DNA of 36,843 nt. Origin: Nemertoderma westbladi (Eukaryota; Animalia; Xenacoelomorpha). A program made the translations under genes and the position numbers. How positions within the stretch are numbered: the first letter of the stretch is position 1; the number at the start of each line of letters is the position of its first letter. Of the stretch, positions 12,859-36,843 are shown one piece after another. The stretch spans positions 1 to 36,843 of the forward strand of contig JAUCBJ010006908.1 in NCBI GenBank assembly GCA_032718475.1, read 5' to 3'. The notes beneath the pieces were generated by a model. It saw nothing but the letters and a program-made list of their open reading frames with translations. It was not told where the DNA came from and did no database searches.

Positions 12859-13387
12859 GTACCATTACATACACTCCAACGACGGTGTTTCCTGCGGTTC
12901 CCTACTGGTAGAATTCTCCCTCCTTAACGGTTTCCCCAGCGAGACCGATCTATTTATCACCCAGGCTGTCCTGCAGTACCTCTGTCTCTACAAACGCGAA
13001 CCAGCCAGGCTATGCTTTGTTACCTATACCAATAAACACCCCGTGGTTACCTTAGAAACACCCCCTTCTACCCCTCCTAACTACTCTCTCCCGTTACTCA
13101 ACTTTATTTCCCTGCTACTAATGGCTATCGAGGGAGGTAAACTAACTGTTTTTACCATCCTTTGCGAGGCATACCGCCCTGAGTTACAATATCGGGATCG
13201 TTGCTACGCCGATTACTTGCAGCGGATTGGTCAGCTGTTTTTTGGTCTGGAGTCCCAGTCGCAGACACCAAGGGGCGGTTCTGGTCTCCTAGACGCCTTC
13301 ATGACCTCCAGAGCTACACCAACCGAGACCTCTAGACCCCAACGCCCTCTGGCGACTGTAATAACAACTGATGAAGATTTCGATTAA
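12859..13387 (+). CDS. GET4: GET4 exon 2 (terminal coding exon)
   Basis: YHYIHSNDG..LVEF..GFPSETDLFITQAVLQYLCL..YTNKHP..PLLNF..F.ILCEAY.P..YLQRIGQLFFG; in frame with ORF 13043-13387. Confidence 0.93.
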
Positions 13388-13879: not shown

Positions 13880-16390
13880 TAGTGAGCTTGCCTACTTAGA
13901 TAGTGAGTTAGTTTGTGAGTGTTACCCGCAGTGAACTTAGATAGTGAGTTAGTTTGTGAGTGTTACCAGCAGTTGAGCTTGCCTACTTAGTAGTGAGTTA
14001 GTTTGTGAGTGTTACCCGCAGTTGAGCTTGCCTACTTAGTAGTGAGTTAGTTTGAGAGTGTTACCCGCAGTGAACTTAGTAGTGAGTTAGTTTGTGAGTG
14101 TTACCCGCAGTTGAGCTTGCCTACTTAGTAGTGAGTTAGTTTGTGAGTGTTACCCGCAGTGAACTTGGTAGTGAGTTAGTTTGTGAGTGTTACCGGCAGT
14201 GAACTTAGTAGTGAGTTAGTTTGTGAGTGTTACCCGCAGTTGAGCTTGCCTACTTAGTAGTGAGTTAGTTTGTGAGTGTTACCCGCAGTGAACTTAGTAG
14301 TGAGTTAGTTTGTGAGTGTTACCCGCAGTGAACTTAGTAGTGAGTTAGTTTGTGAGTGTTACCCGCAGTTGAGCTTGCCTACTTGGTAGTGAGTTAGTTT
14401 GTGAGTGTTACCCGCAGTGAACTTAGTAGTGAGTTAGTTTGTGAGTGTTACCCGCAGTTGAGCTTGCCTACTTAGTAGTGAGTTAGTTTGTGAGTGTTAC
14501 CCGCAGTTGAGCTTGCCTACTTAGTAGTGAGTTAGTTTGTGAGTGTTACCCGCAGTTGAGCTTGCCTACTTAGTAGTGAGTTAGTTTGTGAGTGTTACCC
14601 GCAGTTGAGACTTAGTAGTGAGTTAGTTTGTGAGTGTTACCCGCAGTGAACTTAGTAGTGAGTTAGTTTGTGAGTGTTACCCGCAGTTGAGCTTGCCTAC
14701 TTAGTAGTGAGTTAGTTTGTGAGTGTTACCCGCAGTGAACTTAGTAGTGAGTTAGTTTGTGAGTGTTACCCGCAGTTGAGCTTGCCTACTTAGTAGTGAG
14801 TTAGTTTGTGAGTGTTACCCGCAGTGAACTTAGTAGTGAGTTAGTTTGTGAGTGTTACCCGCAGTTGAGCTTGCCTACTTAGTAGTGAGTTTGTTTGTGA
14901 GTGTTACCCTCAGTTGAGCTTGCCTACTTAGTAGTGAGTTAGTTTGTGAGTGTTACCCGCAGTGAACTTAGTAGTGAGTTAGTTTGTGAGTGTTACCCGC
15001 AGTGAACTTAGTAGTGAGTTAGTTTGTGAGTGTTACCCGCAGTTGAGCTTGCCTACTTAGTAGTGAGTTAGTTTGTGAGTGTTACCCGCAGTGAACTTAG
15101 TAGTGAGTTAGTTTGTGAGTGTTACCCGCAGTTGAGCTTGCCTACTTAGTAGTGAGTTAGTTTGTGAGTGTTACCCGCAGTTGAGCTTGCCTACTTAGTA
15201 GTGAGTTAGTTTGTGAGTGTTACCCGCAGTTGAGCTTGCCTACTTAGTAGTGAGTTAGTTTGTGAGTGTTACCCGCAGTGACCACTTAGTAGTGAGTTAG
15301 TTTGTGAGTGTTACCCGCAGTGAACTTAGTAGTGAGTTAGTTTGTGAGTGTTACCCGCAGTTGAGCTTGCCTACTTGGTAGTGAGTTAGTTTGTGAGTGT
15401 TACCCGCAGTGAACTTAGTAGTGAGTTAGTTTGTGAGTGTTACCCGCAGTTGAGCTTGCCTACTTGGTAGTGAGTTAGTTTGTGAGTGTTACCCGCAGTG
15501 AACTAGCATACAATGGTAAGTTAGTGCAATATAATCAACCATCAGTAGAGCTGCACTTACAAGCATTTAGTTAAGAAATCAAGTCACATTAACGCAAAGA
15601 GATACAAACGTTAAGTAAAAGAGATATTAACGTTAATGTTGAGTGTCTACCAGATAGTGAACTTAGTAGTGAGTTAGTTTGTGAGTGTTACCCGCAGTTG
15701 AGCTTGCCTACTTAGTAGTGAGTTAGTTTGTGAGTGTTACCCGCAGTTGAGCTTGCCTACTAAGTAGTGAGTTAGTTTGTGAGTGTTACCCGCAGTTGAG
15801 CTTGCCTACTTAGTAGTGAGTTAGTTTGTGAGTGTTACCCGCAGTTGAGCTTGCCTACTAAGTAGTGAGTTAGTTTGTGAGTGTTACCCGCAGTTGAGAT
15901 TGCCTACTTAGTAGTGAGTTAGTTTGTGAGTGTTACCCACAGTTGAGCTTGCCTACTTAGTAGTGAGTTAGTTTGTGAGTGTTACCCGCAGTTGAGCTTG
16001 CTTACTTAGTAGTGAGTTAGTTTGTGAGTGTTACCAGCAGTTGAGCTTGCCTACTTAGATAGTGAGTTAGTTTGTGAGTGTTACCCACAGTTGAGCTTGC
16101 CTACTTAGTAGTGAGTTAGTTTGTGAGTGTTACCCGCAGTTGTGCTTGCTTACTTAGTAGTGAGTTAGTTTGTGAGTGTTACCAGCAGTTGAGCTTGCCT
16201 ACTTAGATAGTGAGTTAGTTTGTGAGTGTTACCCGCAGTTGAGCTTGCCTACTTAGATGGTGAGTTAGTTTGTGAGTGTTACCCGCAGTGAACTTAGTAG
16301 TGAGTTAGTTTGTGAGTGTTACCCGCAGTTGAGCTTGCCTACTTAGTAGTGAGTTAGTTTGTGAGTGTTACCCGCAGTTGAGCTTGCCTA
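13880..16390. repeat. Satellite with interspersed 49-bp and 40-bp units (TAGTAGTGAGTTAGTTTGTGAGTGTTACCCGCAGT+TGAGCTTGCCTACT or +GAACT), interrupted by a unique ~150 bp at 15506-15657
   Basis: Read directly from the sequence. Confidence 0.95.
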
Positions 16391-18243: not shown

Positions 18244-18669
18244 TTTTAATATATCGCTTTGTTATGTATTTATTAGCCCCCAAGAAGAGCATTAATAAAA
18301 AATACAAACAAAATAAGTAACAAAAAAATAAAACATAAATAAAGTAGTATCGGTATCTAAAAATAAGTAAAATAAGTAGCTTTAAGTTTCTGAGCGCAAA
18401 AATATATCGATTAATTATAGCTATAAATTTTTAATGCAGCATTCCAGAATATTCTGTATTTATTGATTAGATATAATAAACGAGAATTATTGAAATCTTT
18501 CAAAGATATACAGACCTTTTTTACATAACATTTTATTTAAATTTTATTTTTTTTAATTTAAAAATTTATTTAACAGAAGCAAAAATACATTCTTCACATT
18601 CTGTAAGATTGGCCGTGAAACGAACGAAGACTGAAAGCCTCAAATACTGACTCACACTTGACAAACATA

Positions 18670-21600
18670 TGTTGTGACGGGATCCAACGGAGTTGGCAGT
18701 ATGAATCCCGACCGGTGTGTGTTATACGCGTCGTCGCGTCACGGAGTTGGCAGTATGGATCCCGACCGGTGTGTGTTATACGCGTCGCCGCGTCCGTGAC
18801 GGGATCCAACGGAGTTGGCAGTATGAATCCCGACCGGTGTGTGTTATACGCGTCGCCGCGTCCGTGACGGGATCCAATGGAGTTGGCAGTATGAATCCCG
18901 ACCGGTGTGTGTTATACGCGTCGCCGCGTCCGTGACGGGATCCAATGGAGTTGGCAGTATGAATCCCGACCGGTGTGTGTTATACGCGTCGCCGCGTCCG
19001 TACGGGATCCAACGGAGTTGGCAGTATGAATCCCGACCGGTGTGTGTTATACGCGTCGTCGCGTCACGGAGTTGGCAGTATGGATCCCGACCGGTGTGTG
19101 TTATACGCGTCGCCGCGTCCGTGACGGGATCCAATGGAGTTGGCAGTATGAATCCCGACCGGTGTGCGTTATACGCGTCGCCGCGTCCGTGACGGGATCC
19201 AATGGAGTTGGCAGTATGAATCCCGACCGGTGTGTGTTATACGCGTCGCCGCGTCCGTGACGGGATCCAACGGAGTTGGCAGTATGAATCCCGACCGGTG
19301 TGTGTTATACGCGTCGCCGCGTCACAGAGTTGGCAGTATGGATCCCGACCGGTGTGTGTTATACGCGTCGCCGCGTCCGTGACGGGATCCAACGGAGTTG
19401 GCAGTATGAATCCCGACCGGTGTGTGTTATACGCGTCGCCGCGTCCGTGACGGGATCCAACGGAGTTGGCAGTATGAATCCCGACCGGTGTGTGTTATAC
19501 GCGTCGCCGCGTCCGTGACGGGATCCAACGGAGTTGGCAGTATGAATCCCGACCGGTGTGTGTTATACGCGTCGCCGCGTCCGTGACGGGATCCAACGGA
19601 GTTGGCAGTATGAATCCCGACCGGTGTGTGTTATACGCGTCGCCGCGTCACAGAGTTGGCAGTATGGATCCCGACCGGTGTGTGTTATACGCGTCGCCGC
19701 GTCCGTGACGGGATCCAACGGAGTTGGCAGTATGAATCCCGACCGGTGTGTGTTATACGCGTCGCCGCGTCCGTGACGGGATCCAACGGAGTTGGCAGTA
19801 TGAATCCCGACCGGTGTGTGTTATACGCGTCGCCGCGTCCGTGACGGGATCCAACGGAGTTGGCAGTATGGATCCCGACCGGTGTGTGTTATACGCGTCG
19901 CCGCGTCCGTGACGGGATCCAACGGAGTTGGCAGTATGAATCCCGACCGGTGTGTGTTATACGCGTCGCCGCGTCCGTGACGGGATCCAACGGAGTTGGC
20001 AGTATGAATCCCGACCGGAGTGTGTTATACGCGTCGCCGCGTCCGTGACGGGATCCAACGGAGTTGGCAGTATGAATCCCGACCGGAGTGTGTTATACGC
20101 GTCGCCGCGTCCGTGACGGGATCCAACGGAGTTGGCAGTATGAATCCCGACCGGTGTTTGTGTTATACGCGTCGCCGCGTCACGGAGTTGGCAGTATGGA
20201 TCCCGACCGGTGTGTGTTATACGCGTCGCCGCGTCCGTGACGGGATCCAACGGAGTTGGCAGTATGAATCCCGACCGGTGTGTGTTATACGCGTCGCCGC
20301 GTCCGTGACGGGATCCAACGGAGTTGGCAGTATGAATCCCGACCGGTGTGTGTTATACGCGTCGCCGCGTCCGTGACGGGATCCAACGGAGTTGGCAGTA
20401 TGAATCCCGACCGGTGTGTGTTATACGCGTCGCCGCGTCCGTGACGGGATCCAACGGAGTTGGCAGTATGAATCCCGACCGGTGTGTGTTATACGCATCG
20501 CCGCGTCACGGAGTTGGCAGTATGGATCCCGACCGGTGTGTGTTATACGCGTCGCCGCGTCCGTGACGGGATCCAACGGAGTTGGCAGTATGAATCCCGA
20601 CCGGTGTGTGTTATACGCGTCGCCGCGTCCGTGACGGGATCCAACGGAGTTGGCAGTATGAATCCCGACCGGTGTGTGTTATACGCGTCGCCGCGTCCGT
20701 ACGGGATCCAACGGAGTTGGCAGTATGGATCCCGACCGGTGTGTGTTATACGCGTCGCCGCGTCCGTGACGGGATCCAACGGAGTTGGCAGTATGAATCC
20801 CGACCGGTGTGTGTTATACGCGTCGCCGCGTCCGTGACGGGATCCAACGGAGTTGGAAGTATGGATCCCGACCGGTGTGTGTTATACGCGTCGCCGCGTC
20901 CGTACGGGATCCAACGGAGTTGGCAGTATGGATCCCGACCGGTGTGTGTTATACGCGTCGCCCCGTCCGTGACGGGATCCAACGGAGTTGGCAGTATGAA
21001 TCCCGACCGGTGTGTGTTATACGCGTCGTCGCGTCACGGAGTTGGCAGTATGGATCCCAACCGGTGTGTGTTATACGCGTCGCCCCGTCCGTGACGGGAT
21101 CCAACGGAGTTGGCAGTATGAATCCCGACCGGTGTGTGTTATACGCGTCGCCGCGTCCGTGACGGGATCCAACGGAGTTGGCAGTATGAATCCCGACCGG
21201 TGTGTGTTATACGCGTCGCCGCGTCCGTGACGGGATCCAACGGAGTTGGCAGTATGAATCCCGACCGGTGTGTGTTATACGCGTCGCCGCGTCCGTGACG
21301 GGATCCAACGGAGTTGGCAGTATGGATCCCGACCGGTGTGTGTTATACGCGTCGCCGCGTCCGTACGGGATCCAACGGAGTTGGCAGTATGGATCCCGAC
21401 CGGTGTGTGTTATACGCGTCGCCCCGTCCGTGACGGGATCCAACGGAGTTGGCAGTATGAATCCCGACCGGTGTGTGTTATACGCGTCGTCGCGTCACGG
21501 AGTTGGCAGTATGGATCCCAACCGGTGTGTGTTATACGCGTCGCCCCGTCCGTGACGGGATCCAACGGAGTTGGCAGTATGAATCCCGACCGGTGTGTGT

Positions 21601-24600
21601 TATACGCATCGCCGCGTCCGTGACGGGATCCAATGGAGTTGGCAGTATGAATCCCGACCGGTGTGTGTTATACGCGTCGCCCCGTCCGTGACGGGATCCA
21701 ACGGAGTTGGCAGTATGAATCCCGACCGGTGTTTGTGTTATACGCGTCGCCGCGTCACGGAGTTGGCAGTATGAATCCCGACCGGTGTGTGTTATACGCG
21801 TCGCCGCGTCCGTGACGGGATCCAACGGAGTTGGCAGTATGAATCCCGACCGGTGTGTGTTATACGCGTCGCCGCGTCTGTGACGGGATCCAACGGAGTT
21901 GGCAGTATGGATCCCGACCGGTGTGTGTTATACGCGTCGCCGCGTCCGTGACGGGATCCAACGGAGTTGGCAGTATGAATCCCGACCGGTGTGTGTTATA
22001 CGCGTCGCCGCGTCACGGAGTTGGCAGTATGGATCCCGACCGGTGTGTGTTATACGCGTCGCCGCGTCTGTGACGGGATCCAACGGAGTTGGCAGTATGG
22101 ATCCCGACCGGTGTGTGTTATACGCGTCGCCGCGTCCGTGACGGGATCCAACGGAGTTGGCAGTATGAATCCCGACCGGTGTGTGTTATACGCGTCGCCG
22201 CGTCACGGAGTTGGCAGTATGGATCCCGACCGGTGTGTGTTATACGCGTCGCCGCGTCCGTGACGGGATCCAACGGAGTTGGCAGTATGGATCCCGACCG
22301 GTGTGTGTTATACGCGTCGCCGCGTCCGTGACGGGATCCAACGGAGTTGGCAGTATGAATCCCGACCGGTGTGTGTTATACGCGTCGCCGCGTCATGGAG
22401 TTGGCAGTATGGATCCCGACCGGTGTGTGTTATACGCGTCGCCGCGTCCGTGACGGGATCCAACGGAGTTGGCAGTATGAATCCCGACCGGTGTGTGTTA
22501 TACGCGTCGCCGCGTCCGTGACGGGATCCAACGGAGTTGGCAGTATGAATCCCGACCGGTGTGTGTTATACGCGTCGCCGCGTCCGTGACGGGATCCAAC
22601 GGAGTTGGCAGTATGAATCCCGACCGGTGTGTGTTATACGCGTCGCCGCGTCCGTGACGGGATCCAACGGAGTTGGCAGTATGAATCCCGACCGGTGTGT
22701 GTTATACGCGTCGCCGCGTCCGTGACGGGATCCAACGGAGTTGGCAGTATGAATCCCGACCGGAGTGTGTTATACGCGTCGCCGCGTCCGTGACGGGATC
22801 CAACGGAGTTGGCAGTATGGATCCCGACCAGTGTGTGTTATACGCGTCGCCCCTTCTGTGACGGGATCCAACGGAGTTGGCAGTATGAATCCCGACCGGA
22901 GTGTGTTATACGCGTCGCCGCGTCCGTGACGGGATCCAACGGAGTTGGCAGTATGGATCCCGACCGGTGTGTGTTATACGCGTCGCCGCGTCACGGAGTT
23001 GGCAGTATGGATCCCGACCGGTGTGTGTTATACGCGTCGCCGCGTATGTGACGGGATCCAACGGAGTTGGCAGTATGAATCCCGACCGGTGTGTGTTATA
23101 CGCGTCGCCGCGTCCGTGACGGGATCCAACGGAGTTGGCAGTATGAATCCCGACCGGTGTGTGTTATACGCGTCGCCCCGTCCGTGACGGGATCCAACGG
23201 AGTTGGCAGTATGGATCCCGACCGGTGTGTGTTATACGCGTCGCCGCGTCCGTGACGGGATCCAACGGAGTTGGCAGTATGGATCCCGACCGGTGTGTGT
23301 TATACGCGTCGCCGCGTCCGTGACGGGATCCAACGGAGTTGGCAGTATGGATCCCGACCGGTGTGTGTTATACACGTCCCCGCGTCCGTGACGGGATCCA
23401 ACGGAGTTGGCAGTATGAATCCCGACCGGTGTGTGTTATACGCGTCGCCGCGTCCGTGACGGGATCCAACGGAGTTGGCAGTATGGATCCCGACCGGTGT
23501 GTGTTATACGCGTCGCCGCGTCCGTGACGGGATCCAACGGAGTTGGCAGTATGGATCCCGACCGGTGTGTGTTATACGCGTCGCCGCGTCCGTGACGGGA
23601 TCCAACGGAGTTGGCAGTATGAATCCCGACCGGTGTGTGTTATACGCGTCGCCGCGTCACGGAGTTGGCAGTATGAATCCCGACCGGTGTGTGTTATACG
23701 CGTCGCCGAGTCCGTGACGGGATCCAACGGAGTTGGCAGTATGAATCCCGACCGGTGTGTGTTATACGCGTCGCCGCGTCACGGAGTTGGCAGTATGGAT
23801 CCCGACCGGTGTGTGTTATACGCGTCGCCGCGTCCGTGACGGGATCCAACGGAGTTGGCAGTATGGATCCCGACCGGTGTGTGTTATACGCGTCGCCGCG
23901 TCACGGAGTTGGCAGTATGGATCCCGACCGGTGTGTGTTATACGCGTCGCCGCGTCCGTGACGGGATCCAACGGAGTTGGCAGTATGGATCCCGACCGGT
24001 GTGTGTTATACGCGTCGCCGCGTCACGGAGTTGGCAGTATGGATCCCGACCGGTGTGTGTTATACGCGTCGCCGCGTCCGTGACGGGATCCAACGGAGTT
24101 GGCAGTATGAATCCCGACCGGTGTGTGTTATACGCGTCGCCGCGTCCGTGACGGGATCCAACGGAGTTGGCAGTATGAATCCCGACCAGAGTGTGTTATA
24201 CGCGTCGCCGCGTCCGTGACGGGATCCAACGGAGTTGGCAGTATGAATCCCGACCGGAGTGTGTTATACGCGTCGCCGCGTCCGTGACGGGATCCAACGG
24301 AGTTGGCAGTATGAATCCCGACCAGAGTGTGTTATACGCGTCGCCGCGTCCGTGACGGGATCCAACGGAGTTGGCAGTATGAATCCCGACCGGAGTGTGT
24401 TATACGCGTCGCCGCGTCCGTGACGGGATCCAACGGAGTTGGCAGTATGAATCCCGACCGGTGTGTGTTATACGCGTCGCCGCGTCCGTGACGGGATCCA
24501 ACGGAGTTGGCAGTATGAATCCCGACCGGTGTGTGTTATACGCGTCGCCGCGTCCGTGACGGGATCCAACGGAGTTGGCAGTATGAATCCCGACCAGAGT

Positions 24601-27600
24601 GTGTTATACGCGTCGCCGCGTCCGTGACGGGATCCAACGGAGTTGGCAGTATGGATCCCGACCGGTGTGTGTTATACGCGTCGCCGCGTCTGTGACGGGA
24701 TCCAACGGAGTTGGCAGTATGAATCCCGACCGGAGTGTGTTATACGCGTCGCCGCGTCCGTGACGGGATCCAACGGAGTTGGCAGTATGAATCCCGACCG
24801 GAGTGTGTTATACGCGTCGCCGCGTCCGTGACGGGATCCAACGGAGTTGGCAGTATGAATCCCGACTGGTGTGTGTTATACGCGTCGCCGCGTCCGTGAC
24901 GGGATCCAACGGAGTTGGCAGTATGGATCCCGACCGGTGTGTGTTATACGCGTCGCCGCGTCACGGAGTTGGCAGTATGGATCCCGACCGGTGTGTGTTA
25001 TACGCGTCGCCGCGTCCGTGACGGGATCCAACGGAGTTGGCAGTATGGATCCCGACCGGTGTGTGTTATACGCGTCGCCGCGTCACGGAGTTGGCAGTAT
25101 GGATCCCGACCGGTGTGTGTTATACGCGTCGCCGCGTATGTGACGGGATCCAACGGAGTTGGCAGTATGAATCCCGACCGGTGTGTGTGTTATACGCGTC
25201 GCCGCGTCCGTGACGGGATCCAACGGAGTTGGCAGTATGAATCCCGACCGGTGTGTGTTATACGCGTCGCCCCGTCCGTGACGGGATCCAACGGAGTTGG
25301 CAGTATGGATCCCGACCGGTGTGTGTTATACGCGTCGCCGCGTCCGTGACGGGATCCAACGGAGTTGGCAGTATGAATCCCGACCGGTGTGTGTTATACG
25401 CGTCGCCCCGTCCGTGACGGGATCCAACGGAGTTGGCAGTATGAATCCCGACCGGAGTGTGTTATACGCGTCGCCGCGTCCGTGACGGGATCCAACGGAG
25501 TTGGCAGTATGGATCCCGACCGGTGTGTGTTATACGCGTCGCCGCGTCGCGGAGTTGGCAGTATGGATCCCGACCGGTGTGTGTTATACGCGTCGCCGCG
25601 TATGTGACGGGATCCAACGGAGTTGGCAGTATGAATCCCGACCGGTGTGTGTGTTATACGCGTCGCCGCGTCCGTGACGGGATCCAACGGAGTTGGCAGT
25701 ATGAATCCCGACCGGTGTGTGTTATACGCGTCGCCCCGTCCGTGACGGGATCCAACGGAGTTGGCAGTATGAATCCCGACCGGAGTGTGTTATACGCGTC
25801 GCCGCGTCCGTGACGGGATCCAACGGAGTTGGCAGTATGGATCCCGACCGGTGTGTGTTATACGCGTCGCCGCGTCACGGAGTTGGCAGTATGGATCCCG
25901 ACCGGTGTGTGTTATACGCGTCGCCGCGTATGTGACGGGATCCAACGGAGTTGGCAGTATGAATCCCGACCGGTGTGTGTGTTATACGCGTCGCCGCGTC
26001 CGTGACGGGATCCAACGGAGTTGGCAGTATGAATTCCGACCGGTGTGTGTTATACGCGTCGCCCCGTCCGTGACGGGATCCAACGGAGTTGGCAGTATGG
26101 ATCCCGACCGGTGTGTGTTATACGCGTCGCCGCGTCCGTGACGGGATGCAACGGAGTTGGCAGTATGGATCCCGACCGGTGTGTGTTATACGCGTCGCCA
26201 CGTCCGTGACGGGATCCAACGGAGTTGGCAGTATGGATCCCGACCGGTGTGTGTTATACGCGTCGCCGCGTCCGTGACGGGATCCAACGGAGTTGGCAGT
26301 ATGGATCCCGACCGGTGTGTGTTATACGCGTCGCCGCGTCCGTGACGGGATCCAACGGAGTTGGCAGTATGGATCCCGACCGGTGTGTGTTATACGCGTC
26401 GCCGCGTCCGTGACGGGATCCAACGGAGTTGGCAGTATGGATCCCGACCGGTGTGTGTTATACGCGTCGCCGCGTCCGTGACGGGATCCAACGGAGTTGG
26501 CAGTATGGATCCCGACCGGTGTGTGTTATACGCGTCGCCGCGTCCGTGACGGGATCCAACGGAGTTGGCAGTATGGATCCCGACCGGTGTGTGTTATACG
26601 CGTCGCCGCGTCCGTGACGGGATCCAACGGAGTTGGCAGTATGGATCCCGACCGGTGTGTGTTATACGCGTCGCCGCGTCATGGAGTTGGCAGTATGGAT
26701 CCCGACCGGTGTGTGTGTTATATACGTCGCCGCGTCTGTAGGCTGCCGGGATCCAACGGAGTTGGCAGTATGGATCCCGAACAGTGTGTGTTATACGCAT
26801 CGCCGCGTCACGGAGTTGGCAGTATGGATCCCGACTGGTGTGTGTTATACGCGTCGCCGCGTCACGGAGTTGGCAGTATGAATCCCGACCGGTGTGTGTG
26901 TTATACGCGTCGCTGCGTCACGGAGTTGGCAGTATGGATCCCGACCGGTGTGTGTTATACGCGTCGCCGCGTCATGGAGTTGGCAGTATGAATCCCGACC
27001 AGTGTGTGTTATACGCGTCGCCGCGTCACGGAGTTGGCAGTATGAATCCCGACCGGTGTGTGTTATACGCGTCGCCGCGTCACGGAGTTGGCAGTATGAA
27101 TTCCGACCAGTGTGTGTTATACGCGTCGCCGCGTCACGGAGTTGGCAGTATGAATTCCGACCGGTGTGTGTTATACGCGTCGCCGCGTCACGGAGTTGGC
27201 AGTATGGATCCCGACCGGTGTGTGTTATACGCGTCGCCGCGTCTGTGACGGGATCCAACGGAGTTGGCAGTATGGATCCCGACCGGTGTGTGTTATACTC
27301 GTCGCCGCGTCACGGAGTTGGCAGTATGAATCCCGACCGGTGTGTGTTATACGCGTCGCCGCGTCCGTGACGGTATCCAACGGAGTTGGCAGTATGGATC
27401 CCGACCGGTGTTTGTGTTATACGCGTCGCCGCGTCACGGAGTTGGCAGTATGGATCCCGACCGGTGTGTGTTATACGCGTCGCCCGACGGGATCCAACGG
27501 AGTTGGCAGTATGAATCCCGACCGGTGTGTGTTATACGCGTCGCCGCGTCCGTGACGGGATCCAACGGAGTTGGCAGTATGGATCCCGACCGGTGTGTGT

Positions 27601-30461
27601 TATACGCGTCGCCCGACGGGATCCAACAGAGTTGGCAGTATGGATCCCGACCGGTGTGTGTTATATGCGTCGCCCGACGGGATCCAACGGAGTTGGCAGT
27701 ATGGATCCCGACCGGTGTGTGTTATACGCGTCGCCCGACGGGATCCAATGGAGTTGGCAGTATGGATCCCGACCGGTGTTTGTGTTATACGCGTCGCCGC
27801 GTCACGGAGTTGGCAGTATGGATCCCGACCGGTGTGTGTTATACGCGTCGTCGCGTCACGGAGTTGGCAGTATGAATCCCGACCGGTGTGTGTTATACGC
27901 GTCGCCGCGTCACGGAGTTGGCAGTATGTATCCCGACCGGTGTGTGTTATACGCGTCGCCGCGTCACGGAGTTGGCAGTATGGATCCCGACCGGTGTGTG
28001 TTATACGCGTCATCGCGTCACGGAGTTGGCAGTATGGATCCCGACCGGTGTGTGTTATACGCGTCGTCGCGTCACGGAGTTGGCAGTATGGATCCCGACC
28101 GGTGTGTGTTATACGCGTCGCCGCGTCCGTGACGGGATCCAACGGAGTTGGCAGTAATGAATCCCGACCGGTGTGTGTTATACGCGTCGCCCGACGGGAT
28201 CCAACGGAGTTGGCAGTATGGATCCCGACCGGTGTGTGTTATACGCGTCGCCCGACGGGATCCAACAGAGTTGGCAGTATGAATCCCGACCGGTGTTTGT
28301 TATACGCGTCGCCCGACAGGATCCAACGGAGTTGGCAGTATGGATCCCGACCGGTGTGTGTTATACGCGTCGCCCGACGGGATCCAACGGAGTTGGCAGT
28401 ATGGATCCCGACCGGTGTTTGTGTTATACGCGTCGCCGCGTCACGGAGTTGGCAGTATGGATCCCGACCAGTGTGTGTTATACGCGTCGTCGCGTCACGG
28501 AGTTGGCAGTATGAATCCCGACCGGTGTGTGTTATACGCGTCGCCGCGTCACGGTGTTGGCAGTATGGATCCCGACCAGTGTGTGTTATACGCGTCGCCG
28601 CGTCACGGAGTTGGCAGTATGGATCCCGACCGGTGTGTGTTATACGCGTCGTCGCGTCACGGAGTTGGCAGTATGGATCCCGACCAGTGTGTGTTATACG
28701 CGTCGTCGCGTCACGGAGTTGGCAGTATGGATCCCGACCGGTGTGTGTTATACGCGTCGCCTCGTCCGTGACGGGATCCAACGGAGTTGGCAGTAATGAA
28801 TCCCGACCGGTGTGTGTTATACGCGTCGCCCGACGGGATCCAACGGAGTTGGCAGTATGGATCCCGACCGGTGTGTGTTATACGCGTCGCCCGACGGGAT
28901 CCAACAGAGTTGGCAGTATGAATCCCGACCGGTGTTTGTGTTATACGCGTCGCCGCGTCACGGAGTTGGCAGTATGGATCCCGACCGGTGTGTGTTATAC
29001 GCGTCGCCGCGTCTGTGACGGGATCCAACGGAGTTGGCAGTAATGAATCCCGACTGGTGTGTGTTATACGCGTCGCCCGACGGGATCCAACGGAGTTGGC
29101 AGTATGGATCCCGACCGGTGTGTGTTATACGCGTCGCCCGACGGGATCCAACGGAGTTGGCAGTATGGATCCCGACCGGTGTGTGTTATACGCGTCGCCG
29201 CGTCACGGAGTTGGCATTATGGATCCCGACCGGTGTGTGTGTTATACGCGTCGCCGCGTCTGTAGGCTGCCGGGATCCAACGGAGTTGGCAGTATGGATC
29301 CCGACCGGTGTGTGTTATACGCGTCGCCGCGTCACGGAGTTGGCAGTATGGATCCCGACCGGTGTGTGTTATACGCGTCGCCGCGTCACGGAGTTGGCAG
29401 TATGAATCCCGACTGGTGTGTGTTATACGCGTCGCCGCGTCACGGAGTTGGCAGTATGGATCCCGACCGGTGTGTGTTATACGCGTCGCCGCGTCACGGA
29501 GTTGGCAGTATGGATCCCGACCGGTGTGTGTTATACGCGTCGCCGCGTCATGGAGTTGGCAGTATGGATCCCGACCGGTGTGTGTGTTATACACGTCGCC
29601 GCGTCTGTAGGCTGCCGGGATCCAACGGAGTTGGCAGTATGGATCCCGACCAGTGTGTGTTATACGCATCGCCGCGTCACGGAGTTGGCAGTATGGATCC
29701 CGACTGGTGTGTGTTATACGCGTCGCCGCGTCACGGAGTTGGCAGTATGAATCCCGACCGGTGTTTGTGTTATACGCGTCGCTGCGTCACGGAGTTTGCA
29801 GTATGGATCCCGACCGGTGTGTGTTATACGCGTCGCCGCGTCATGGAGTTGGCAGTATGAATCCCGACCAGTGTGTGTTATACGCGTCGCCGCGTCACGG
29901 AGTTGGCAGTATGAATCCCGACCGGTGTGTGTTATACGCGTCGCCGCGTCACGGAGTTGGCAGTATGAATTCCGACCAGTGTGTGTTATACGCGTCGCCG
30001 CGTCACGGAGTTGGCAGTATGAATTCCGACCGGTGTGTGTTATACGCGTCGCCGCGTCAAGGAGTTGGCAGTATGAATCCCGACCGGTGTTTGTGTTATA
30101 CGCGTCGCCGCGTCTGTAGGCTGCCGGGATCCAACGGAGTTGGCAGTATGAATCCCGACCGGTGTGTGTTATACGCGTCGCCGCGTCACGGAGTTGGCAG
30201 TATGAATCCCAACTGGTGTGTGTGTTATACGCGTCGTCGCGTCCGTAGGCTGCTAAAGCTGTAGTCTGGATATAAAAGGCCGAAAGGCTGTTGAAATAAC
30301 TGAGTTTTTACTGTCAGTCGTTATAATCACAGAACATAATAATAGCACAGTCAGAACATAATAGCACGGTAGTGATGACGGTTAAAAACCGTTCCGGTCT
30401 CACAAGTGTATAGAAACCAACTGAATCAGAATCAATAAGTTCAACGGTTATATTATTAACA
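18670..30461 (+). mobile_element. Putative solo LTR whose U3 repeats have expanded into the satellite
   Basis: TGTT...AACA termini with CATA on both sides (18666-18669, 30462-30465); TATAAAAG at 30271 directly after the array; Inr-like TGAGT/TCAGT at 30301 and 30314; AATAAG at about 30434. Confidence 0.55.
18673..30250. repeat. 11.6-kb CpG-rich satellite; 68-bp unit GTGACGGGATCCAACGGAGTTGGCAGTATG(A/G)ATCCCGACCGGTGTGTGTTATACGCGTCGCCGCGTCC with 54-bp, 60-bp and longer TGTAGGCTGCC-containing variants
   Basis: Read directly; ORF-track offsets of 68, 122 and 190 confirm the periods. Confidence 0.97.
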
Positions 30462-30585
30462 CATATTACTCACCTCTACTCTACTGAGTGGCCTGTCCAA
30501 TAGATGCGCTCTAATCACTTCCAATGTGTTTCCCACCCATCATTGGCTTAACCTGATTAATTGTCACCTCGCCACTCCCGCTTGC

Positions 30586-31166
30586 CTACTACTAGGATCG
30601 GTATGCTGCATTGCAGCTGCATTTTTAAGAATGCTGTGCCGGCTTATCGACAAAATTGCACCGCCACAACTCCCTATCACCCATGACATTTGCTAGATCA
30701 TCCGCATCTTCAAGGCCAGTGTCCTTTAAGATGCGTCTCAAGAAAGTCATGGGCTGTCCACCATGCTTATTCACTCCATGAGGCTGCCAAAGTACAAGAT
30801 TATGCACTGGCTGGTCCTCACGGCGAAAGCAATGTCCTGCAAAGCGGAGGCGATTTTGTTCTAGTGTCAAGCTTGGGGGAACCAATGAGACACCTCCAAT
30901 GTTATATAGTGTCTGGTTGGAGATGTGTGCTTTGTACTTGACACAATGAACCCGGCCTATCATTCTTGTGAATGTGCCATCCAGAGATTTGGTGTCCTCA
31001 GCCATTAGAGCCCAGCATGGACTCCCATAGAGGAGTACTGGAACTACTGCTGCTCTAAATAATCGTACCTTAAGTTTCCGATTAATTCTCGTTGACTTCC
31101 AAATCCTGGAAAGCCTATTCAAGGCTACCCATGCCTTTCCCTTACGTATTCGAAGGTCCTCACCTG
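30586..31166 (-). mobile_element. 5'-truncated RTE-clade LINE, copy C
   Basis: Translation nearly identical to the C-terminus of copies A and B; same 3' UTR and (TAG)3 tail. Confidence 0.9.
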
Positions 31167-31708
31167 TTCGCGCTTTCAGACCTTTGGCAGTTTAACCCGC
31201 CAAATTATGATGTCTTCTAGATAATAAATCACTTTTAGCCTATGACAAGTATTTAATTCACTACACTAGTCGAAACCAATCTGTGCGCGATCATTCACCC
31301 GCTGGATATACCCGGGAGATTGGGTTCGACGGCTTAATCTTATTGCTATGTAAGCTTAATGTATTATTCGACTGACAGTATTATATAATCTCTGACAATA
31401 TTATTCACCTTCGGGGAATATTAACAGTTCCTTTAGGACGTGGCGCTCTATCTATATAAACAGAGTTATGACTTAAACTACTCACAACGATATGGCTTAG
31501 TTATAATTCACATATATGGCGCATTCTTTAGGAAATGCTTCGTTATCAGACTCACTCATACACAATGCTGCACAATACTGCACACTGATCTGCCGATCTT
31601 CACTGATTTTAGCCACGTATAAAAGGAACACGGACCGAATCATGTAGGGTCTATCAAATAACATTAGATTCACTTCAAACCACTTTAACATAAGTCACAA
31701 TCGTTATA

Positions 31709-32334
31709 TGTAACCTTTCTCTCTTACCTTCGGTATATCAAGAATATTGGGTTTCGGGGTTATTTATCGTTATTCCAAATATAATAATTCATCAACCATA
31801 TTATGAAGAACTGACAGTAAATAGCAGTATAACAATATAAAAGTATGCACAGTAATTCAGTGTGCGTTAAGTTCATTAGTTTGATATTAAGTGTTGTGAT
31901 AACGGATATATGCCCTTTATAATTAAGCCTACTAGTGTTAGACTAAAACAGAAAAGCACAAAATATTTACAAGCCGTTCTCTCCTGGCTTAGGAAAGAAA
32001 GACCAACAACACTGAAAACTGATAAGAATAACCTTATTTACAAAGGCTTCCACCCAACACAGAGAAAGAGCATAAAGATAGGAAAATTCAGTTCAGTAGA
32101 TCTGTGATAGGTCGAAATCAAAATCAACTCAAATCCTATAGGCAGATACTTTCCCAAGCTGGTTGGACAATCAAACGTAGCCCAGATCCCTTCGCACAGC
32201 GAATCAGCCAATCAGCCGGTAGCTTGCGCTATTCGAGTTATAGATCCCTTTTTAGAGTATTCTAGCGACTGGGGGGGAACTGGTTAGCAAGGCAAACGAA
32301 TCAGTTATCCCACAAAAGCTTTTACACCGCTCCC
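31709..32334 (-). mobile_element. Putative polypurine tract and 3' LTR of an LTR retrotransposon extending beyond the right window edge
   Basis: Minus strand TTTTCT-GGGAGCGG|TGTAAAAG (LTR start 32326), about 70 nt after the long ORF stop. Candidate end ...GAAAGGTTACA at 31709 (alternative ...GCTTACA at 31349). CCAAT box near 32209. The second LTR is not in the window. Confidence 0.45.
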
Positions 32335-32404
32335 AGAAAATGGGATTTAAGTCTATAAAATATACAAAATCACAATTTCTAATATACATAAATACTCCAA
32401 ACAA

Positions 32405-35400
32405 TTAGTCTTTCTTGCGTGGACGGCGTTTACGCAGTTTTTTAAAGCTAGCAAGAGTCCTTTTCTCTTTGGGGCGAGCCACTTTACGAGGAGGGCTGTA
32501 GCTCCTAGGCGAAGGGTGCAATATAATTGCATCAGAAGGTGCAGGGTTACGATCGGTATACCCGCCGGTCGAAGTACCTGGTTGATTAATATCAACCTCA
32601 GTGGAGTGAGGTCTAACGGCCTTTAGAGCGCGTCTCAGGACAGCAGCTCCTACGGGTCCTTGACGGGTCGTCTGGACACTAGCGGTGGGTGGACCGTGAG
32701 TGGTGAGGAACTTTCTCGGTTTAATGGTTCTCTCCAGCTCGCGTTCTCGGGTTCGATATTCATATGGTCGCCGAGATATTTCCTGTAGTTCAGGATGCGA
32801 GTTCACAAAGATGTCGCCATACTCAGGGTCCTGACGGATAAAATTGATCAGGTGATATGTGGTTATATCATTAGGGTTAACGTTTCTAAGGTATTTCCTG
32901 ACAAACTTGGTGGAAATACACTCACCAACACGCTTCATTAACTCGTAACTTGGTACGCGTGTTTTCTGTTCAATCGACGCGAATAGATAAGGATGGAACG
33001 CGTAAACTCCCTCGTAAGCTCGTCCAGGGTAATAGCGATGTCGGGATTCGCAATGTAAATCGGCGTTCGCTTCCCAAGCTCGGATGTATCGCAGGGTGAT
33101 CATCTCGTCTACGCTCTCTAAATCGCGATTAAAGGGACAATTGTAACTTTCATGTCCTTTAAGTTGGCAGTAGTGACATTGAGTCATAAATTGTGGGCAG
33201 ACGGCAAATATATGAGAGTTATTAAGCCGGCAATAAGCACAATATATTTCCATCATCGGTTGTTCGAGGAAATAGGAACAAGGTACGCTCGAGTCTAGAG
33301 GAGTGAAGTGGTCTCTCGATGCTCATAATCGACAACGTTTTCGGGAAACGTAGTTGGCGTGTCGATAATCGTACGCTGTGAGACGCTGTGGACCTTGATA
33401 CCACTCTATGACATAATCATTGTCACTGCTCCGGGAAGCCGTAGGTTGAATCGCTTCTGATTCCAAGCATACTGGTTCATCCTCCAGCTGCATAGACGAA
33501 GTGGGTGCGTCGGTTTCCGTAAGTGGACCCACTGTCTGTATTTCCACGACAGAATAACCTGTAGATATTCGGGGTCTTTGTATAACGGATGAATGTAGGT
33601 TCTGTATACAAACGTCTTGAAAGACGGTAAATCCAGCGCTACTCAGTTTCTCCGCAGCTGAGTCTCTAAGACTGAGCTTGGTCAGCGCGCGGTCCTTGAA
33701 CTGACTATCGACGTTACGGAACGGAGTCAGAAAGCGCCGGAAACATTCGAAACGTATGAACTTATTGTGTTCGTCTAACTTGGCGAGTTTAGTTCCAAGT
33801 ATTTACGGGTGAGCGCGTATGGTACGACTGCACACATCGGCTAGCCAACCGGCAAGTGCTGCGTTTTCAAAGATCGTGTATATAGCTAAGGAAGGGCGAA
33901 GTGGAACACTCATAAAGCTATATACTGCACCAGGTGCAGTTAACGGTCCATCAAAATATAAACGAGAGTAATGATCTCCATATACCTGCTGGTAATTGAT
34001 AGGATTTCCAACTTTGAAATTCCATCCATATTCTTGAAAGGCAAGATGTCCGATGGATGTTCATTGTACTTTAGTAATGTCGCTGGGTGTATTGGCATAC
34101 ATAGTGCGAAAGAAACCTCGGCCTTCGGCCCAAGGAGCAATCAGCTGAGTATCAACGAAAGGGTATGGAATGTTTTCCATATTCCGGAAGTCGTTTTGGA
34201 GATCTCCATAAACAGCTGAGCCGATTTTTAGGATTCTTTCGTTAAACAACATTTCGAGCACGGGTTGGGGTAACATTGATCCGTCGATACCCATGGCCGG
34301 TTTGCGCTCGGTGTCGGTGACGTAACACTGCGCGAGCTCGAATTGTCCATGTCGAAGTTTCTTTTGTGTCTCCGTAAGGGTTTCAAAAGAATAGTCAATT
34401 ACGTCGGAACACGCTCGAGTGAATACGTGGGTAGAACCAGCGAGTCCTCGTATATGTATCATTCGCGTAGTTCCTAGTTCTCCCACCGGAACGCTACCTT
34501 CGTTGTCATAAGTAACAACGCCATACATCTCGATAACGTTAAGAGTCTCGTTCCATTCTTTAGTGGCGTTTTCGAGAGTCATTCCCACTGGATGCCACAA
34601 AGTAGCGCATTCGCTAGCATTGGGTAAATCTCTATACTTTAAGCATTGTGTAGTATAGGTTTCCACATCTCCATATCGTTTTATTCTTTCTTCCTCGAAT
34701 AACACGTCAAGATTCCAGTGTACCAATCGAGTTTTAATGAATCCATCAAGATTGTACGGAGGTAATATTTCTTTCTCTATTCTGGAAATATTATACGGTT
34801 TTCGAAATGAGTTTAGTTTAACTAGCTGATCTAGATGTTTTTGTAGTTGTTCGAGTTCGACGAGGTCGAGAGGATTGATCAATGGTAGAAACTTCAGACT
34901 ATGCGTAGGATCTTCTGGTTTTACCATGTAATATTGCTTTAAATTGACGTAATAAGAATGATCCTTAATTCCATAAAATGAGTCCGGCAAAGGTCTAGCG
35001 CGTATGTTAACATCGTGCACCATGCGATGGGCAAGATCCGCTCTATTGTCCGGAGGCTCAACAAGTACGCCATCGACACGAGCAGCCTCGACGGGTGGAC
35101 GTTGTAGCATGGGAGCGTCAGCAACGAGCTCTTGAGATCTGAGATCGGTGTTAACCGGTTGAGGCTGTACCGTAGCAAAGAGCTTGTCTTTAAAATGAGG
35201 AACCATCGAGGGGTGGAGAATCGTTTTGGAATATAGATCCGTCACGAGAATTTGAGCTTCTGGTTGGGCTAAAGCTGCTTCTTCCCTCTCAGTCAGCTCT
35301 ATATGTCTCTCCTCGAGCTGATTTTCTTCCGCTTGTTGTTGCAAGCGCTCGTCCAGGAATTCCTGTAAAGAGTAGGTTCGTCCACGTTCGATGTCCTCTT

Positions 35401-36658
35401 CTAGATTTTGTATTTCTCTATCGAACTGGGGTAAAGCTAGTTCTTTCACCGCTTGGACTTGTTGTTGCAATTTACGTTTCTCCAAGCAATCGTAAGTTCC
35501 TTTTCCGATTTTCTGCCGAATAGCGTCCAATGCATTTCGTATCACGCTCTCTTCGACTTCTGTAACAGGTTGGATCGGAGGAAGGCCAGGACGGTTGTAG
35601 GGGTTAAACGGTGATATTAGATGACCGCGTCCTAGTCCAGCAAGGTAAGGTTGGCGAATATCCAACGAACCCACTACCGGAGTGCCCCCAATCAACTGTT
35701 CAGGTAACACTAGATCTTTGAACAGTGAGTACAGTTCGGGAGGATCCGTAATACTATTAGGATCTAGAGTTTGAGGTATCACTTGGGAATGGGGAGGTCT
35801 GACCGAGTATTCCGGAACTCTGATCATAGGTTTATTCAATGATCGCTTAAGGCGCGCGACCGTAGGTGATACGTCGAAAAGGTTACGCTCGAAACTCCCA
35901 TAAGTATATCGTGTAAAACTGTGTTTAGCGCAACGTCTCCGCGGATGTTTATGCCTTTCGATCTGCTGGTTAGGTCTAGGGCATTCGTCACAGTAATACC
36001 AAAGACGCATGTCTTGAAGGGGAAACACGGGTGATCGCTCTCCAGTTTTACAATATTCCTCCATCTGTTCGAAGCTATCTGGAACGACAGGTAGGGGTCG
36101 ATCGGCGGTAAGATACATCATCGTAAAATAGAGCCGTTTGAGTTCCATCATAGGATCTGGATGTATACCTTGGGGATATCGAGTTTCGAGGTTTTGTTGA
36201 CTGGCAACATTGAGATAGGTCTCTCTTAGAAATTCTAGATATTCGTTGAAGCCGCTACGTTTATCAGGTTCTTCAACGTCTTCTCTTTCGAGCTTATTTC
36301 GAATAGAGTTCTCGTGTTCTATTCTCGATTTATCGTTTCGACTCCGCTGGGTATGATATTTAAATAAAACCATTTCCCTTTCGGTGTCTACATCGTCGGT
36401 GTCGTGTAAATCAATAGGATGACCAGTGGTCAAGAAGTCCATGTACGTACCATTACGATGCGTATAGCGAGCAGTGAATTTTCTATAGTCCAATTCACGC
36501 GTAAGTTGCTCCTGGGACATTGGCGGTTCGATATAACGACCATCGTCCTCCGTAGTAGTTGGATCAGCGTCGCCGCGTATCAAGCTATCGACAAACGCTT
36601 GTAAAGGTAGAATATATCTCTCCCTGATACCAAGATCATCTTCTATTAATTCAGTCAT
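32405..36658 (-). pseudogene. Single 1417-codon intronless frame with three in-frame stops: N-terminal Cys/His cluster and coiled coil, DEDD(y)-type 3'-5' exonuclease, two CCHC zinc knuckles, basic C-terminus
   Basis: ORFs 36658-34061, 33547-33323 and 33256-32405 and the gaps between them share one frame (4254 nt). Stops are TGA 34063-34061, TAA 33805-33803 and TGA 33325-33323. Motifs: VVTYDNE (ExoI), LP..V.EML....ILKIG.AV..DL (ExoII), FVDTQ, PL.....IYTIFE (ExoIII-like), CAYCx5Hx4C and CHYCx4Hx4C. Confidence 0.75.
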
Positions 36659-36843
36659 ATCTGCTATACGAGTTCACCAATATTATAATGAGTTTATATA
36701 TTTATTAGGCGAGCGGGCGTCGCTGCCTACTTCTCCCTTGCCCCCGGACAGTATGAGATTCTCAGCGCCGATGTACCGCTGTCGCTATACTTTCGCCAAC
36801 GACGTAGCCGTACAACGACAACGATAACCGGCACAAGTCACTC

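What the first reader, a model, noticed from the sequence alone, without database searches (positions are those of the whole stretch)
32405..36658. Hidden 1417-aa DEDD exonuclease + double CCHC knuckle protein, probably LTR-retroelement cargo in the env position
Seen: separate ORF calls join into one intronless frame carrying ExoI D-x-E (about 34507-34499), an ExoII-like KIG...D, FVD, and, only after reading through the first stop, an ExoIII-like Y-x3-E (about 33870). Two gag-like knuckles, a coiled coil, a CxxC...C..H cluster and a KKLRKRRPRKK NLS-like tail complete it. No RT, integrase or transmembrane segment was recognised, and a PPT/TG-start LTR-like end follows. Established: these motifs match the WRN/EXD/Mut-7-type DEDDy family, some members of which act in small-RNA pathways, and DEDDy ORFs are known as extra ORFs of bdelloid rotifer retroelements. 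Inference: an element-encoded RNA-binding nuclease of unusual size and architecture, possibly a counter-silencing or RNA-processing factor.
Basis: partly seen in the sequence, partly recalled or inferred. Interest (0 to 1): 0.85.

Follow-up and report, generated by a model that had tools for sequence, protein, structure and literature searches.

The report
Retroelement cargo exonuclease with zinc knuckles
This is a broken copy of a long gene carried by a many-copy repeat in an animal genome; the copies differ mostly by silent changes, and the gene likely encodes an RNA-trimming enzyme joined to RNA-gripping zinc knuckles, likely as the extra gene of a retrovirus-like jumping element, a kind of cargo we found described in print only for rotifers.

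Summary
The 1417-codon minus-strand frame is real (3 stops against about 75 expected), but it has three in-frame stops, and no read-through is needed. Stops 1 and 2 are private to this copy (99.8-99.9% of laid depth reads another letter, two samples). Stop 3 is unresolved. The frame belongs to a very high-copy repeat family under purifying selection (12 of 13 shared variants synonymous). The middle domain is likely a DnaQ-type (EXD2/RNase D-like) exonuclease. Each test is weak but they agree: NCBIfam RNase D E=0.003, ESM Atlas PF01612, Foldseek top hit EXD2 on a low-confidence model. One intact distant homolog (P0002) has the same exonuclease-then-CCHC-knuckle layout and the same D-E-D-E acidic set. 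A purine tract and a 1162-bp TG...CA segment follow the gene, which fits a 3' LTR. No gag-pol, 5' LTR or primer site lies in the window, so 'env position' is inferred. DEDDy extra ORFs are known from bdelloid LTR elements; exonuclease plus knuckles is known from trypanosome TbRND. Verdict: a new variant of a known kind.

The parts
32405..36658 (-). 1417-codon intronless frame of the repeat family, broken here by three in-frame stops
   Evidence: variants among copies mostly synonymous
36659..36843 (-). 185-bp upstream stretch with AATAAA (36706-36701) abutting TATATAA (36700-36694); likely non-coding, possibly an internal promoter; no match to the downstream LTR-like segment
   Evidence: sequence; several indels among copies at 36700-36756 (table 4); no self-match
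34562..36658 (-). N-terminal ~700 aa without any recognised family; holds a CxxC/His cluster (aa 223-246, 35992-35921) and a Glu/Gln/Leu-rich stretch (aa ~380-460, possible coiled coil)
   Evidence: no Pfam hit and no PDB hit in this part; crude heptad score only
33824..34561 (-). likely DnaQ-like (EXD2/RNase D-type) 3'-5' exonuclease domain, aa ~700-945; acidic set D718, E720, D819, E931 with Y927 (D-E-D-E instead of D-E-D-D)
34061..34063 (-). stop 1 (codon 866, inside the exonuclease domain); private to this copy
   Evidence: another letter in 99.8% (X1) and 99.9% (X3) of depth
33803..33805 (-). stop 2 (codon 952); private to this copy
   Evidence: another letter in 99.9% of depth in both runs
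33323..33325 (-). stop 3 (codon 1112), inside a loosely knuckle-like Cys/His cluster (aa 1109-1127); private or shared status unresolved
   Evidence: no variant row, but a known 98% variant is missing there too; one divergent X3 contig reads a sense codon (table 7)
33197..33241 (-). zinc knuckle C-x2-C-x5-H-x4-C
33137..33178 (-). canonical zinc knuckle C-x2-C-x4-H-x4-C
   Evidence: AIR2 is the only PDB hit of the whole protein, E 7.4, not significant
32411..32443 (-). basic C-terminal tail KKLRKRRPRKK, possible nuclear localisation signal
   Evidence: sequence only
32327..32334 (-). short purine-rich tract GGGAGCGG directly before TGT (weak polypurine tract)
   Evidence: 12 X3 contigs fit the window here and diverge 14 bases into the LTR-like segment (table 7)
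31165..32326 (-). putative 3' LTR, 1162 bp, TGT...ACA, with CCAAT-type boxes, TATATAA at 31387 and ATTAAA at 31257
   Evidence: motifs; highly repeated; one X4 contig leaves the window at 31165 into unrelated sequence (table 7)
30586..31166 (-). 3' part of a LINE (RT tail, DUF6451) that abuts the putative LTR end; the CA at the junction fits either side; likely the insertion target
   Evidence: 97-98% identical to two LINE copies at 2323-2902 and 5896-6476; 78 X1 contigs continue into LINE sequence here

Best explanation
This is a decayed copy, with three in-frame stops, of a long gene that a high-copy repeat family has kept under purifying selection, likely the extra 3' gene of an LTR retrotransposon, and it likely encodes an RNA-binding 3'-5' exonuclease in which CCHC knuckles would hold single-stranded RNA while a DnaQ-type domain would trim its 3' end. 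Shown: the frame, the motifs, the many copies, the synonymous excess, the private nature of two stops, and one intact homolog with the same layout. Inferred: LTR identity and the position after pol (about 70%), DnaQ fold (about 90%), activity on RNA despite the D-E-D-E site (about 60%). The benefit to the element is most likely that the protein shortens or destroys host small guide RNAs or tailed RNAs directed against it, working as TbRND does on trypanosome guide RNAs (about 40%). Processing of the element's own RNA, primer or cDNA ends is the next most likely use (about 25%). The basic tail would take the protein to the nucleus, and the unassigned N-terminal half would serve localisation or partner binding. 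This copy would yield at most an 865-aa product that lacks ExoIII.
For: Real coding frame: 3 stops against about 75 expected. Many copies: 79,391 (X1) and 23,175 (X3) contigs laid on 6.3 kb, and 2,224 and 683 on 851 bp of the ORF interior, in all identity classes from 99+ to under 90%. Selection: of the 19 variant rows, 12 of 13 shared ones are third-position synonymous (P 1.7e-5), whereas only 2 of 6 near-fixed differences from this copy are synonymous and 2 of those 6 are the stop sites. Of the 27 ORF rows among the 40 of 770 shown, 21 are synonymous (two rows overlap). No indel was listed in the 851 bp. Stops 1 and 2 are private, and three stops fit neutral decay of one copy (expected 1.65, P(>=3) 0.23). 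Exonuclease: the top NCBIfam hit of 18,950 models is RNase D, E 0.0031; ESM Atlas gives 27 of 30 hits with PF01612, score 0.91; profile-profile against 79 RNase D sequences gives probability 78%, E 1.7e-5, over 47 columns; Foldseek ranks EXD2 first, with Egalitarian, Exd1 and RNase D further down, best E 0.007; VIA-align top hit EXD2, Z 4.2, rmsd 3.3, 96 aligned. Homolog P0002 (E 1.4e-6 in 1.84 billion proteins; 38.8 bits against at most 2.7 for 500 shuffles) keeps D-x-E, K.G...D, DTQ, Y-x3-E and three knuckles in one open frame. LTR-like end: purine tract plus TGT...ACA, and one contig leaves the window at the CA. Precedent: DEDDy ORF3s in bdelloid Juno and Vesta (PMC5408684); Exo plus CCHC in TbRND (PMC7797062 passages).
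Against: The LTR end rests on motifs and one contig, and the CA also fits the LINE. Every fold signal is weak: the window protein has no Pfam hit at E<=1; P0002 reaches PF01612 only at E 0.2; the A1 profile finds nothing in PDB sequences; both AlphaFold models have pLDDT about 32; the fold searches used the model of P0002's domain, not of the window protein, with no Foldseek hit at E<=0.001; the RNase D profile match covers only the ExoII region. The fourth acidic residue is Glu, and related EXD1 and Maelstrom are inactive (PMC5408684 Discussion). The genomic context of P0002 is unknown. The rows shown were chosen by the tool, not at random. Deleted derivatives that skip 2.5-2.9 kb of the ORF exist (table 5), so the gene is dispensable for spread of some copies. 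Nothing here tests substrate or a role against silencing.
Confidence: 0.55

Rival explanations
1. The domain is a catalytically weak or dead DnaQ fold used only to bind RNA, as in EXD1, Maelstrom or Egalitarian. The protein would be an element-encoded adaptor that binds the element's own RNA and routes it to the germline, the nucleus or particle assembly sites.
For: D-E-D-E in both the window protein and P0002. Egalitarian (including its complex with I-factor transposon RNA, 9rw6) and Exd1 are among the Foldseek hits. Knuckles, a possible coiled coil and a basic tail fit an adaptor. PMC5408684 notes inactive DEDD derivatives that keep RNA binding.
Against: All four positions remain acidic and the Tyr is kept in two proteins only about 28% identical, which a dead enzyme need not do. 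EXD2, ranked first, is an active nuclease (recalled).
Confidence: 0.2
2. The gene is mobile-element cargo but not in the env position of an autonomous LTR element. It is the only ORF of a non-autonomous LTR derivative moved in trans, or cargo of another class (Penelope/Terminon-like, tyrosine-recombinase or DNA transposon), and the TG...CA segment is a neighbouring repeat.
For: No pol or 5' LTR seen. DEDDy ORFs are shared between LTR elements and Terminons (PMC5408684, PMC6431247 passages) and occur inside some Dada transposases (PMC3706591 passages). Both ends of the ORF are more heavily covered than its interior, and deleted forms exist.
Against: The stop codon, purine tract and TGT follow within 80 bp in the usual order. 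Contigs of divergent copies fit across the tract into the LTR-like segment. No transposase motif or RNA-family match in 30200-36843 apart from one chance IRE hit.
Confidence: 0.17
3. The third UGA is fixed in the main subfamily and is recoded at low rate or bypassed by splicing or re-initiation, so the element makes a short exonuclease-only protein and a longer or separate knuckle-bearing form.
For: One search lists no variant at this stop although the place is well covered, while stops 1 and 2 are listed. The downstream 305 codons stay open. A pyrimidine-rich AG acceptor-like site and a Met-Met pair lie between the stop and the knuckles. Stop suppression expresses the env-like ORF of SIRE1 (PMC2829016 passage).
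Against: The missing row is weak evidence: a 98% variant at 33926 is missing from the same table, all 19 listed rows lie 31 or more letters from a contig end, and 5 of 27 rows would be hidden by that filter. One divergent contig has a sense codon there. P0002 is continuous. The RNA after the stop folds no better than shuffles (z 0 to -0.9). Rfam shows no SECIS, and 2 pattern hits do not fold as one. Three private stops fit neutral decay.
Confidence: 0.07
4. A single-copy host gene or processed pseudogene of an EXD/Mut-7 family protein.
For: The domain type occurs in host small-RNA pathways; the frame is intronless like a retrocopy.
Against: Thousands of divergent contigs with a synonymous excess. 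No host EXD-family protein is retrieved at E<=0.001. The window's host gene GET4 has a spliceosomal intron.
Confidence: 0.01

Closest known systems
DEDDy (RNase D-like) ORF3 of bdelloid LTR retrotransposons Juno and Vesta, shared with Athena/Terminon elements (PMC5408684: passages, Results part 1 of 2 and Discussion read; PMC6431247: passages)
   Same: DEDDy-type exonuclease ORF, no membrane segment, carried by an animal retroelement next to an LTR-like end; an altered acidic set; function untested
   Different: The paper reports DEDD changed to DEED; here it is D-E-D-E. Here the domain is fused to C-terminal CCHC knuckles and about 700 unassigned N-terminal residues (1417 aa); the text read mentions only a Cys-His-Cys motif in some DEDDy ORFs. 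Bdelloid ORF3s showed no significant departure from neutrality within the genome, whereas these copies show a strong synonymous excess. Gag-pol is not seen here and no tree with the bdelloid sequences could be built.
[quoted passage not shown]
   Same: DEDD-family Exo domain followed by tandem CCHC fingers; the ESM Atlas top hit for P0002 is a euglenozoan PF01612 + PF00098 cluster (score 0.86, a lead only); T. brucei RNase D is among the weak fold hits
   Different: TbRND is a mitochondrial host enzyme with four fingers, a short linker and canonical D-E-D-D. Here the protein is element-borne, has two clear knuckles (three in P0002), a ~190-aa linker and D-E-D-E. Orthology is not claimed; likely convergent.
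Animal EXD2 / EXD1 / Egalitarian / Nibbler exonuclease domains (PF01612; PDB titles)
   Same: best-ranked structural neighbours of the low-confidence model; K(I/V)G...DL and (F/L)(V/L)DTQ motifs
   Different: host genes; none was retrieved by sequence at E<=0.001; this domain has long insertions and a Glu in ExoIII
DEDDy domain inside Dada DNA transposases of Laccaria and Ectocarpus (PMC3706591: passages)
   Same: mobile element carrying a DEDDy domain, with zinc-finger motifs in the same protein
   Different: there it is inserted in a DDE transposase of intron-bearing genes; no transposase is recognised here

Membership tests
DEDDy / DnaQ-like 3'-5' exonuclease | ExoI D-x-E and ExoII Asp | tested here: met
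   D718, E720, D819; aligned with the same residues in P0002; the ExoII region aligns to RNase D
DEDDy / DnaQ-like 3'-5' exonuclease | ExoIII Y-x3-D | tested here: not met
   Y-x3-E in both the window protein and P0002: a conservative variant, not the canonical Asp
DEDDy / DnaQ-like 3'-5' exonuclease | RNase H-like DnaQ fold | tested here: inconclusive
   models at pLDDT about 32; the P0002-domain model ranks EXD2 first, Foldseek E 0.007 and VIA Z 4.2; ESM Atlas PF01612
DEDDy / DnaQ-like 3'-5' exonuclease | metal-dependent 3'-5' exonuclease activity | not testable with these tools
   needs a biochemical assay
LTR retrotransposon | LTR with TG...CA ends preceded by a polypurine tract | tested here: inconclusive
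   GGGAGCGG-TGT at 32334-32324 and ACA at 31167-31165; the far end is backed by one contig and the CA also fits the LINE
LTR retrotransposon | paired 5' LTR, primer-binding site and target-site duplication | not testable with these tools
LTR retrotransposon | gag-pol (PR, RT, RH, IN) upstream | not testable with these tools
   not in the window; no related locus was found in viral, metagenome or prokaryote collections
LTR retrotransposon | dispersed multi-copy family | tested here: met
   thousands of divergent contigs in two samples
Bdelloid-type DEDDy ORF3 (Juno/Vesta/Athena pool) | DEED variant of the motif | tested here: not met
   D-E-D-E here against 'DEED' as written in PMC5408684; the paper's alignment figure was not visible
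Bdelloid-type DEDDy ORF3 (Juno/Vesta/Athena pool) | phylogenetic grouping with the bdelloid retroelement ORFs | not testable with these tools
   no bdelloid ORF3 sequence was returned by any search
Envelope (env) glycoprotein | signal peptide, fusion peptide and transmembrane anchor | tested here: not met
   highest 19-residue hydropathy 1.19; no Pfam env hit
Programmed stop-codon read-through | stop conserved across copies (stops 1 and 2) | tested here: not met
   both private to this copy
Programmed stop-codon read-through | stop conserved across copies with a stimulating context (stop 3) | tested here: inconclusive
   no row, but the table hides some variants; no stable downstream structure

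The most novel reading that the evidence does not exclude
A widespread but undescribed class of animal LTR retroelements encodes a large, selected, TbRND-like D-E-D-E exonuclease with zinc knuckles that destroys or trims the host's piRNA/siRNA guides: an enzymatic anti-silencing protein encoded by a transposon. In the boldest version, a conserved UGA before the knuckles switches between a short and a long form.
Probability: 0.2. Interest if true: 0.85.

Novelty: new variant of a known kind. Interest (0 to 1): 0.48.

Why it matters
Why retroelements carry DEDDy nucleases was left open in the bdelloid work, where the ORFs showed no clear selection and activity was untested. Here the ORF shows a strong synonymous excess across a very high-copy family. 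That makes it a better system for asking whether transposons encode enzymes that act on host small RNAs or on their own RNA ends. The exonuclease-plus-knuckle layout and the D-E-D-E site, shared with one distant homolog, point to an old lineage that standard domain libraries miss. This particular copy is dead, and the read-through that made the finding look exotic is not needed.

Tried and rejected
Read-through of stop 1 or 2: rejected, both are private. Reading the missing row at stop 3 as proof that it is shared: rejected after finding that a 98% variant (33926) is also absent. Conserved segment after the knuckles between P0001 and P0002: first noted by eye, then rejected (score 16, reached by 2000 of 2000 shuffles). 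A third knuckle around stop 3 is only a loose pattern (His to last Cys 9 apart), and MAFFT did not align it with P0002's first knuckle. SECIS or stem-loop after stop 3: none found. TGGTGAACTCG near 36679 as a primer-binding site: rejected, since the bases before it do not match the LTR-like end. Homolog searches that found nothing: P0001 aa 600-1250 among proteins of 779-2480 aa; P0002 found only itself; the two-sequence profile found none among proteins of 140-522 aa; viral contigs, metagenome contigs (33, 54), prokaryote genomes (72), phages (70) and plasmids (55, one chance hit). Pfam gave no hit for the window protein or its pieces; PHROGs gave only E 0.05-0.3 hits, one of them an exonuclease family. 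Single-sequence AlphaFold of the window domain failed (pLDDT 32) and was not searched. No RNA holder was listed among the sequencing runs (X4 is only a guess), so expression is untested. Summed contig depth was not used as a copy number. Literature searches listed no paper on an exonuclease-plus-CCHC ORF in LTR elements outside the bdelloid work; the library lacks most subscription journals and Repbase Reports, and no supplements or figures were seen. Earlier-findings look-ups by place (near) and by sequence gave nothing, nor did one word search.
Full report
Setting. The window is repeat-rich animal-type DNA: LINE reverse-transcriptase and endonuclease fragments, two GET4 coding halves separated by a GT...AG intron, and long tandem arrays of 31, 49 and 68 bp. 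No whole genome is held, and the window ends 185 bp upstream of the finding.

The observation. On the minus strand, 36658-32405 is one frame of 1417 codons with three internal stops, at codons 866, 952 and 1112. About 75 stops are expected from composition and the other five frames have 59-97, so the frame is a real gene. There is no membrane segment. The coiled coil is not established.

Copy number and selection. Four public DNA-type contig sets were laid on 30500-36843. In X1 79,391 contigs fit and in X3 23,175, in every identity class down to under 90%; on 851 bp of the ORF interior the counts were 2,224 and 683. This is a high-copy family; summed depth was not used as a number. Of the 19 variant rows, 13 are shared polymorphisms, and 12 of those are third-position synonymous (P 1.7e-5). 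The 6 rows where nearly all copies differ from this one fall on all codon positions and include stops 1 and 2. Of the 27 ORF rows among the 40 of 770 shown, 21 are synonymous (the tool chose these rows, and two overlap). The family gene is thus under purifying selection, while this copy has decayed neutrally. Deleted derivatives that skip 2.5-2.9 kb of the ORF also exist.

The stops. Stops 1 and 2 are private: 99.8-99.9% of depth in two samples reads another letter, giving a sense codon. No read-through is needed to reach ExoIII. Stop 3 has no row, which at first suggested a shared stop. However, a 98% variant at 33926 is also missing, all 19 listed rows lie at least 31 letters from a contig end, and 5 of 27 rows would be hidden by that filter. 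One divergent X3 contig has a sense codon there (table 7), and three private stops fit the copy's decay (expected 1.65, P(>=3) 0.23). The RNA behind the stop folds no better than shuffles, and no SECIS was found. Stop 3 is most likely private too, but it remains open.

The domain. Pfam gives nothing for the window protein. NCBIfam's best hit is RNase D, E 0.0031, over the ExoII region. ESM Atlas gives PF01612 in 27 of 30 hits, score 0.91. A full HMMER scan of 1.84 billion representatives returned one protein, P0002 (648 aa, E 1.4e-6). It is intact and unnamed, from a 9.4-kb ENA contig, with the same order of exonuclease motifs followed by three CCHC knuckles (38.8 bits against at most 2.7 in 500 shuffles). 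Both proteins have Glu in place of the ExoIII Asp. The two-sequence profile matches an RNase D profile at 78% probability over 47 columns. Both AlphaFold models are poor (pLDDT about 32). The model of P0002's domain still ranks EXD2 first in Foldseek (E 0.007; Egalitarian, Exd1 and RNase D follow among unrelated rows) and in VIA-align (Z 4.2). No single test is strong, and the Foldseek result leans partly on sequence, but all point to the EXD2/RNase D side of the DnaQ family. Similarity after the knuckles is not significant. The N-terminal 700 residues remain unassigned.

The element. The stop codon is followed after 70 bp by GGGAGCGG and then TGT at 32326. A segment with CCAAT-type boxes, TATATAA and ATTAAA runs to ACA at 31165, where the 3' part of a LINE begins. 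One X4 contig leaves the window at 31165 into unrelated sequence, and 12 X3 contigs fit across the purine tract and diverge 14 bases into the segment. This fits a 1162-bp 3' LTR of an element inserted into a LINE, but the CA also fits the LINE, and only one contig marks the end. The 185 bp upstream are indel-rich among copies, hold AATAAA next to TATATAA, and do not match the LTR-like segment. A position after pol is therefore the simplest reading, not a result. No related locus with context was found.

How it likely works. By analogy with TbRND, whose CCHC fingers bind RNA while the DEDD domain cuts by a two-metal mechanism (PMC7797062, passages), the intact family protein would bind single-stranded RNA through its knuckles and trim 3' ends. 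Selection among copies indicates that the protein served the element. The most likely use is against host small or tailed RNAs; processing of the element's own RNA or primer comes next; a non-catalytic adaptor like Egalitarian or EXD1 is the main rival, because the site is D-E-D-E. All of this is inference: no substrate, activity or expression was tested.

Comparison and novelty. DEDDy extra ORFs are described for bdelloid Juno and Vesta LTR elements and for Terminons (PMC5408684: passages, Results part 1 of 2, Discussion; PMC6431247 and PMC6338049: passages), with a DEED motif and no clear selection. A DEDDy insert is known in some Dada transposases (PMC3706591, passages). Seven searches listed no paper on an exonuclease-plus-knuckle ORF in other animal LTR elements; the library is incomplete, and figures and supplements were not seen. 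Two earlier unchecked notes of this scan report Rrp6-like exonuclease plus CCHC ORF3s beside gypsy-type elements in other genomes. I did not test them; they suggest the arrangement recurs and lower the surprise. What is new here is the size, the EXD2-like rather than HRDC-bearing type, the D-E-D-E site shared with a distant homolog, and clear purifying selection in a very abundant family. Verdict: a real gene, dead in this copy, a new variant of a known kind; interest 0.48.

Noticed in passing
window 4031-4509 and 12859-13387 (+), with arrays at 9117-12872: Host GET4 gene in two coding halves (Pfam positions 1-108 and 109-256) joined by an ~8.3-kb GT...AG intron. The 31-bp tandem unit CTTTATTTCCTTCCCCAGGTACCATTATATA, in about 75 copies plus two shorter arrays, is itself the 3' splice site and first exon bases, so the acceptor appears to be amplified about a hundred times and the last unit must be the one used.
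   Followed up: partly
window 18633-30253: About 11.6 kb satellite of 68/54-bp units at 60% GC, CpG-rich, with higher-order periods of 136, 204 and 345.
   Followed up: no
window 32405-36658 versus LINE fragments: CpG observed/expected is 1.26 in the ORF but 0.44-0.62 in four LINE ORFs and the adjacent LINE fragment: the element shows no CpG depletion, unlike its neighbours.
   Followed up: no
window 32539-35301 and 33433-36300: Contigs that skip 2.5-2.9 kb of the ORF in X1, X3 and X5 (table 5): internally deleted derivatives of the element exist.
   Followed up: partly
window 30289-30585 (-): A second stretch with CCAAT-type boxes ending in TTTCAACA lies beyond the LINE tail; possibly part of another LTR.
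   Followed up: no
window 1986-2902, 5178-6476, 30586-31166 and 6606-7709: Three near-identical (97-98%) 3' copies of one LINE family, two of them inside or next to GET4, and an endonuclease ORF on the opposite strand.
   Followed up: partly
window 13935-16390: 2.4-kb tandem array with a 49-bp unit, directly after GET4.
   Followed up: no
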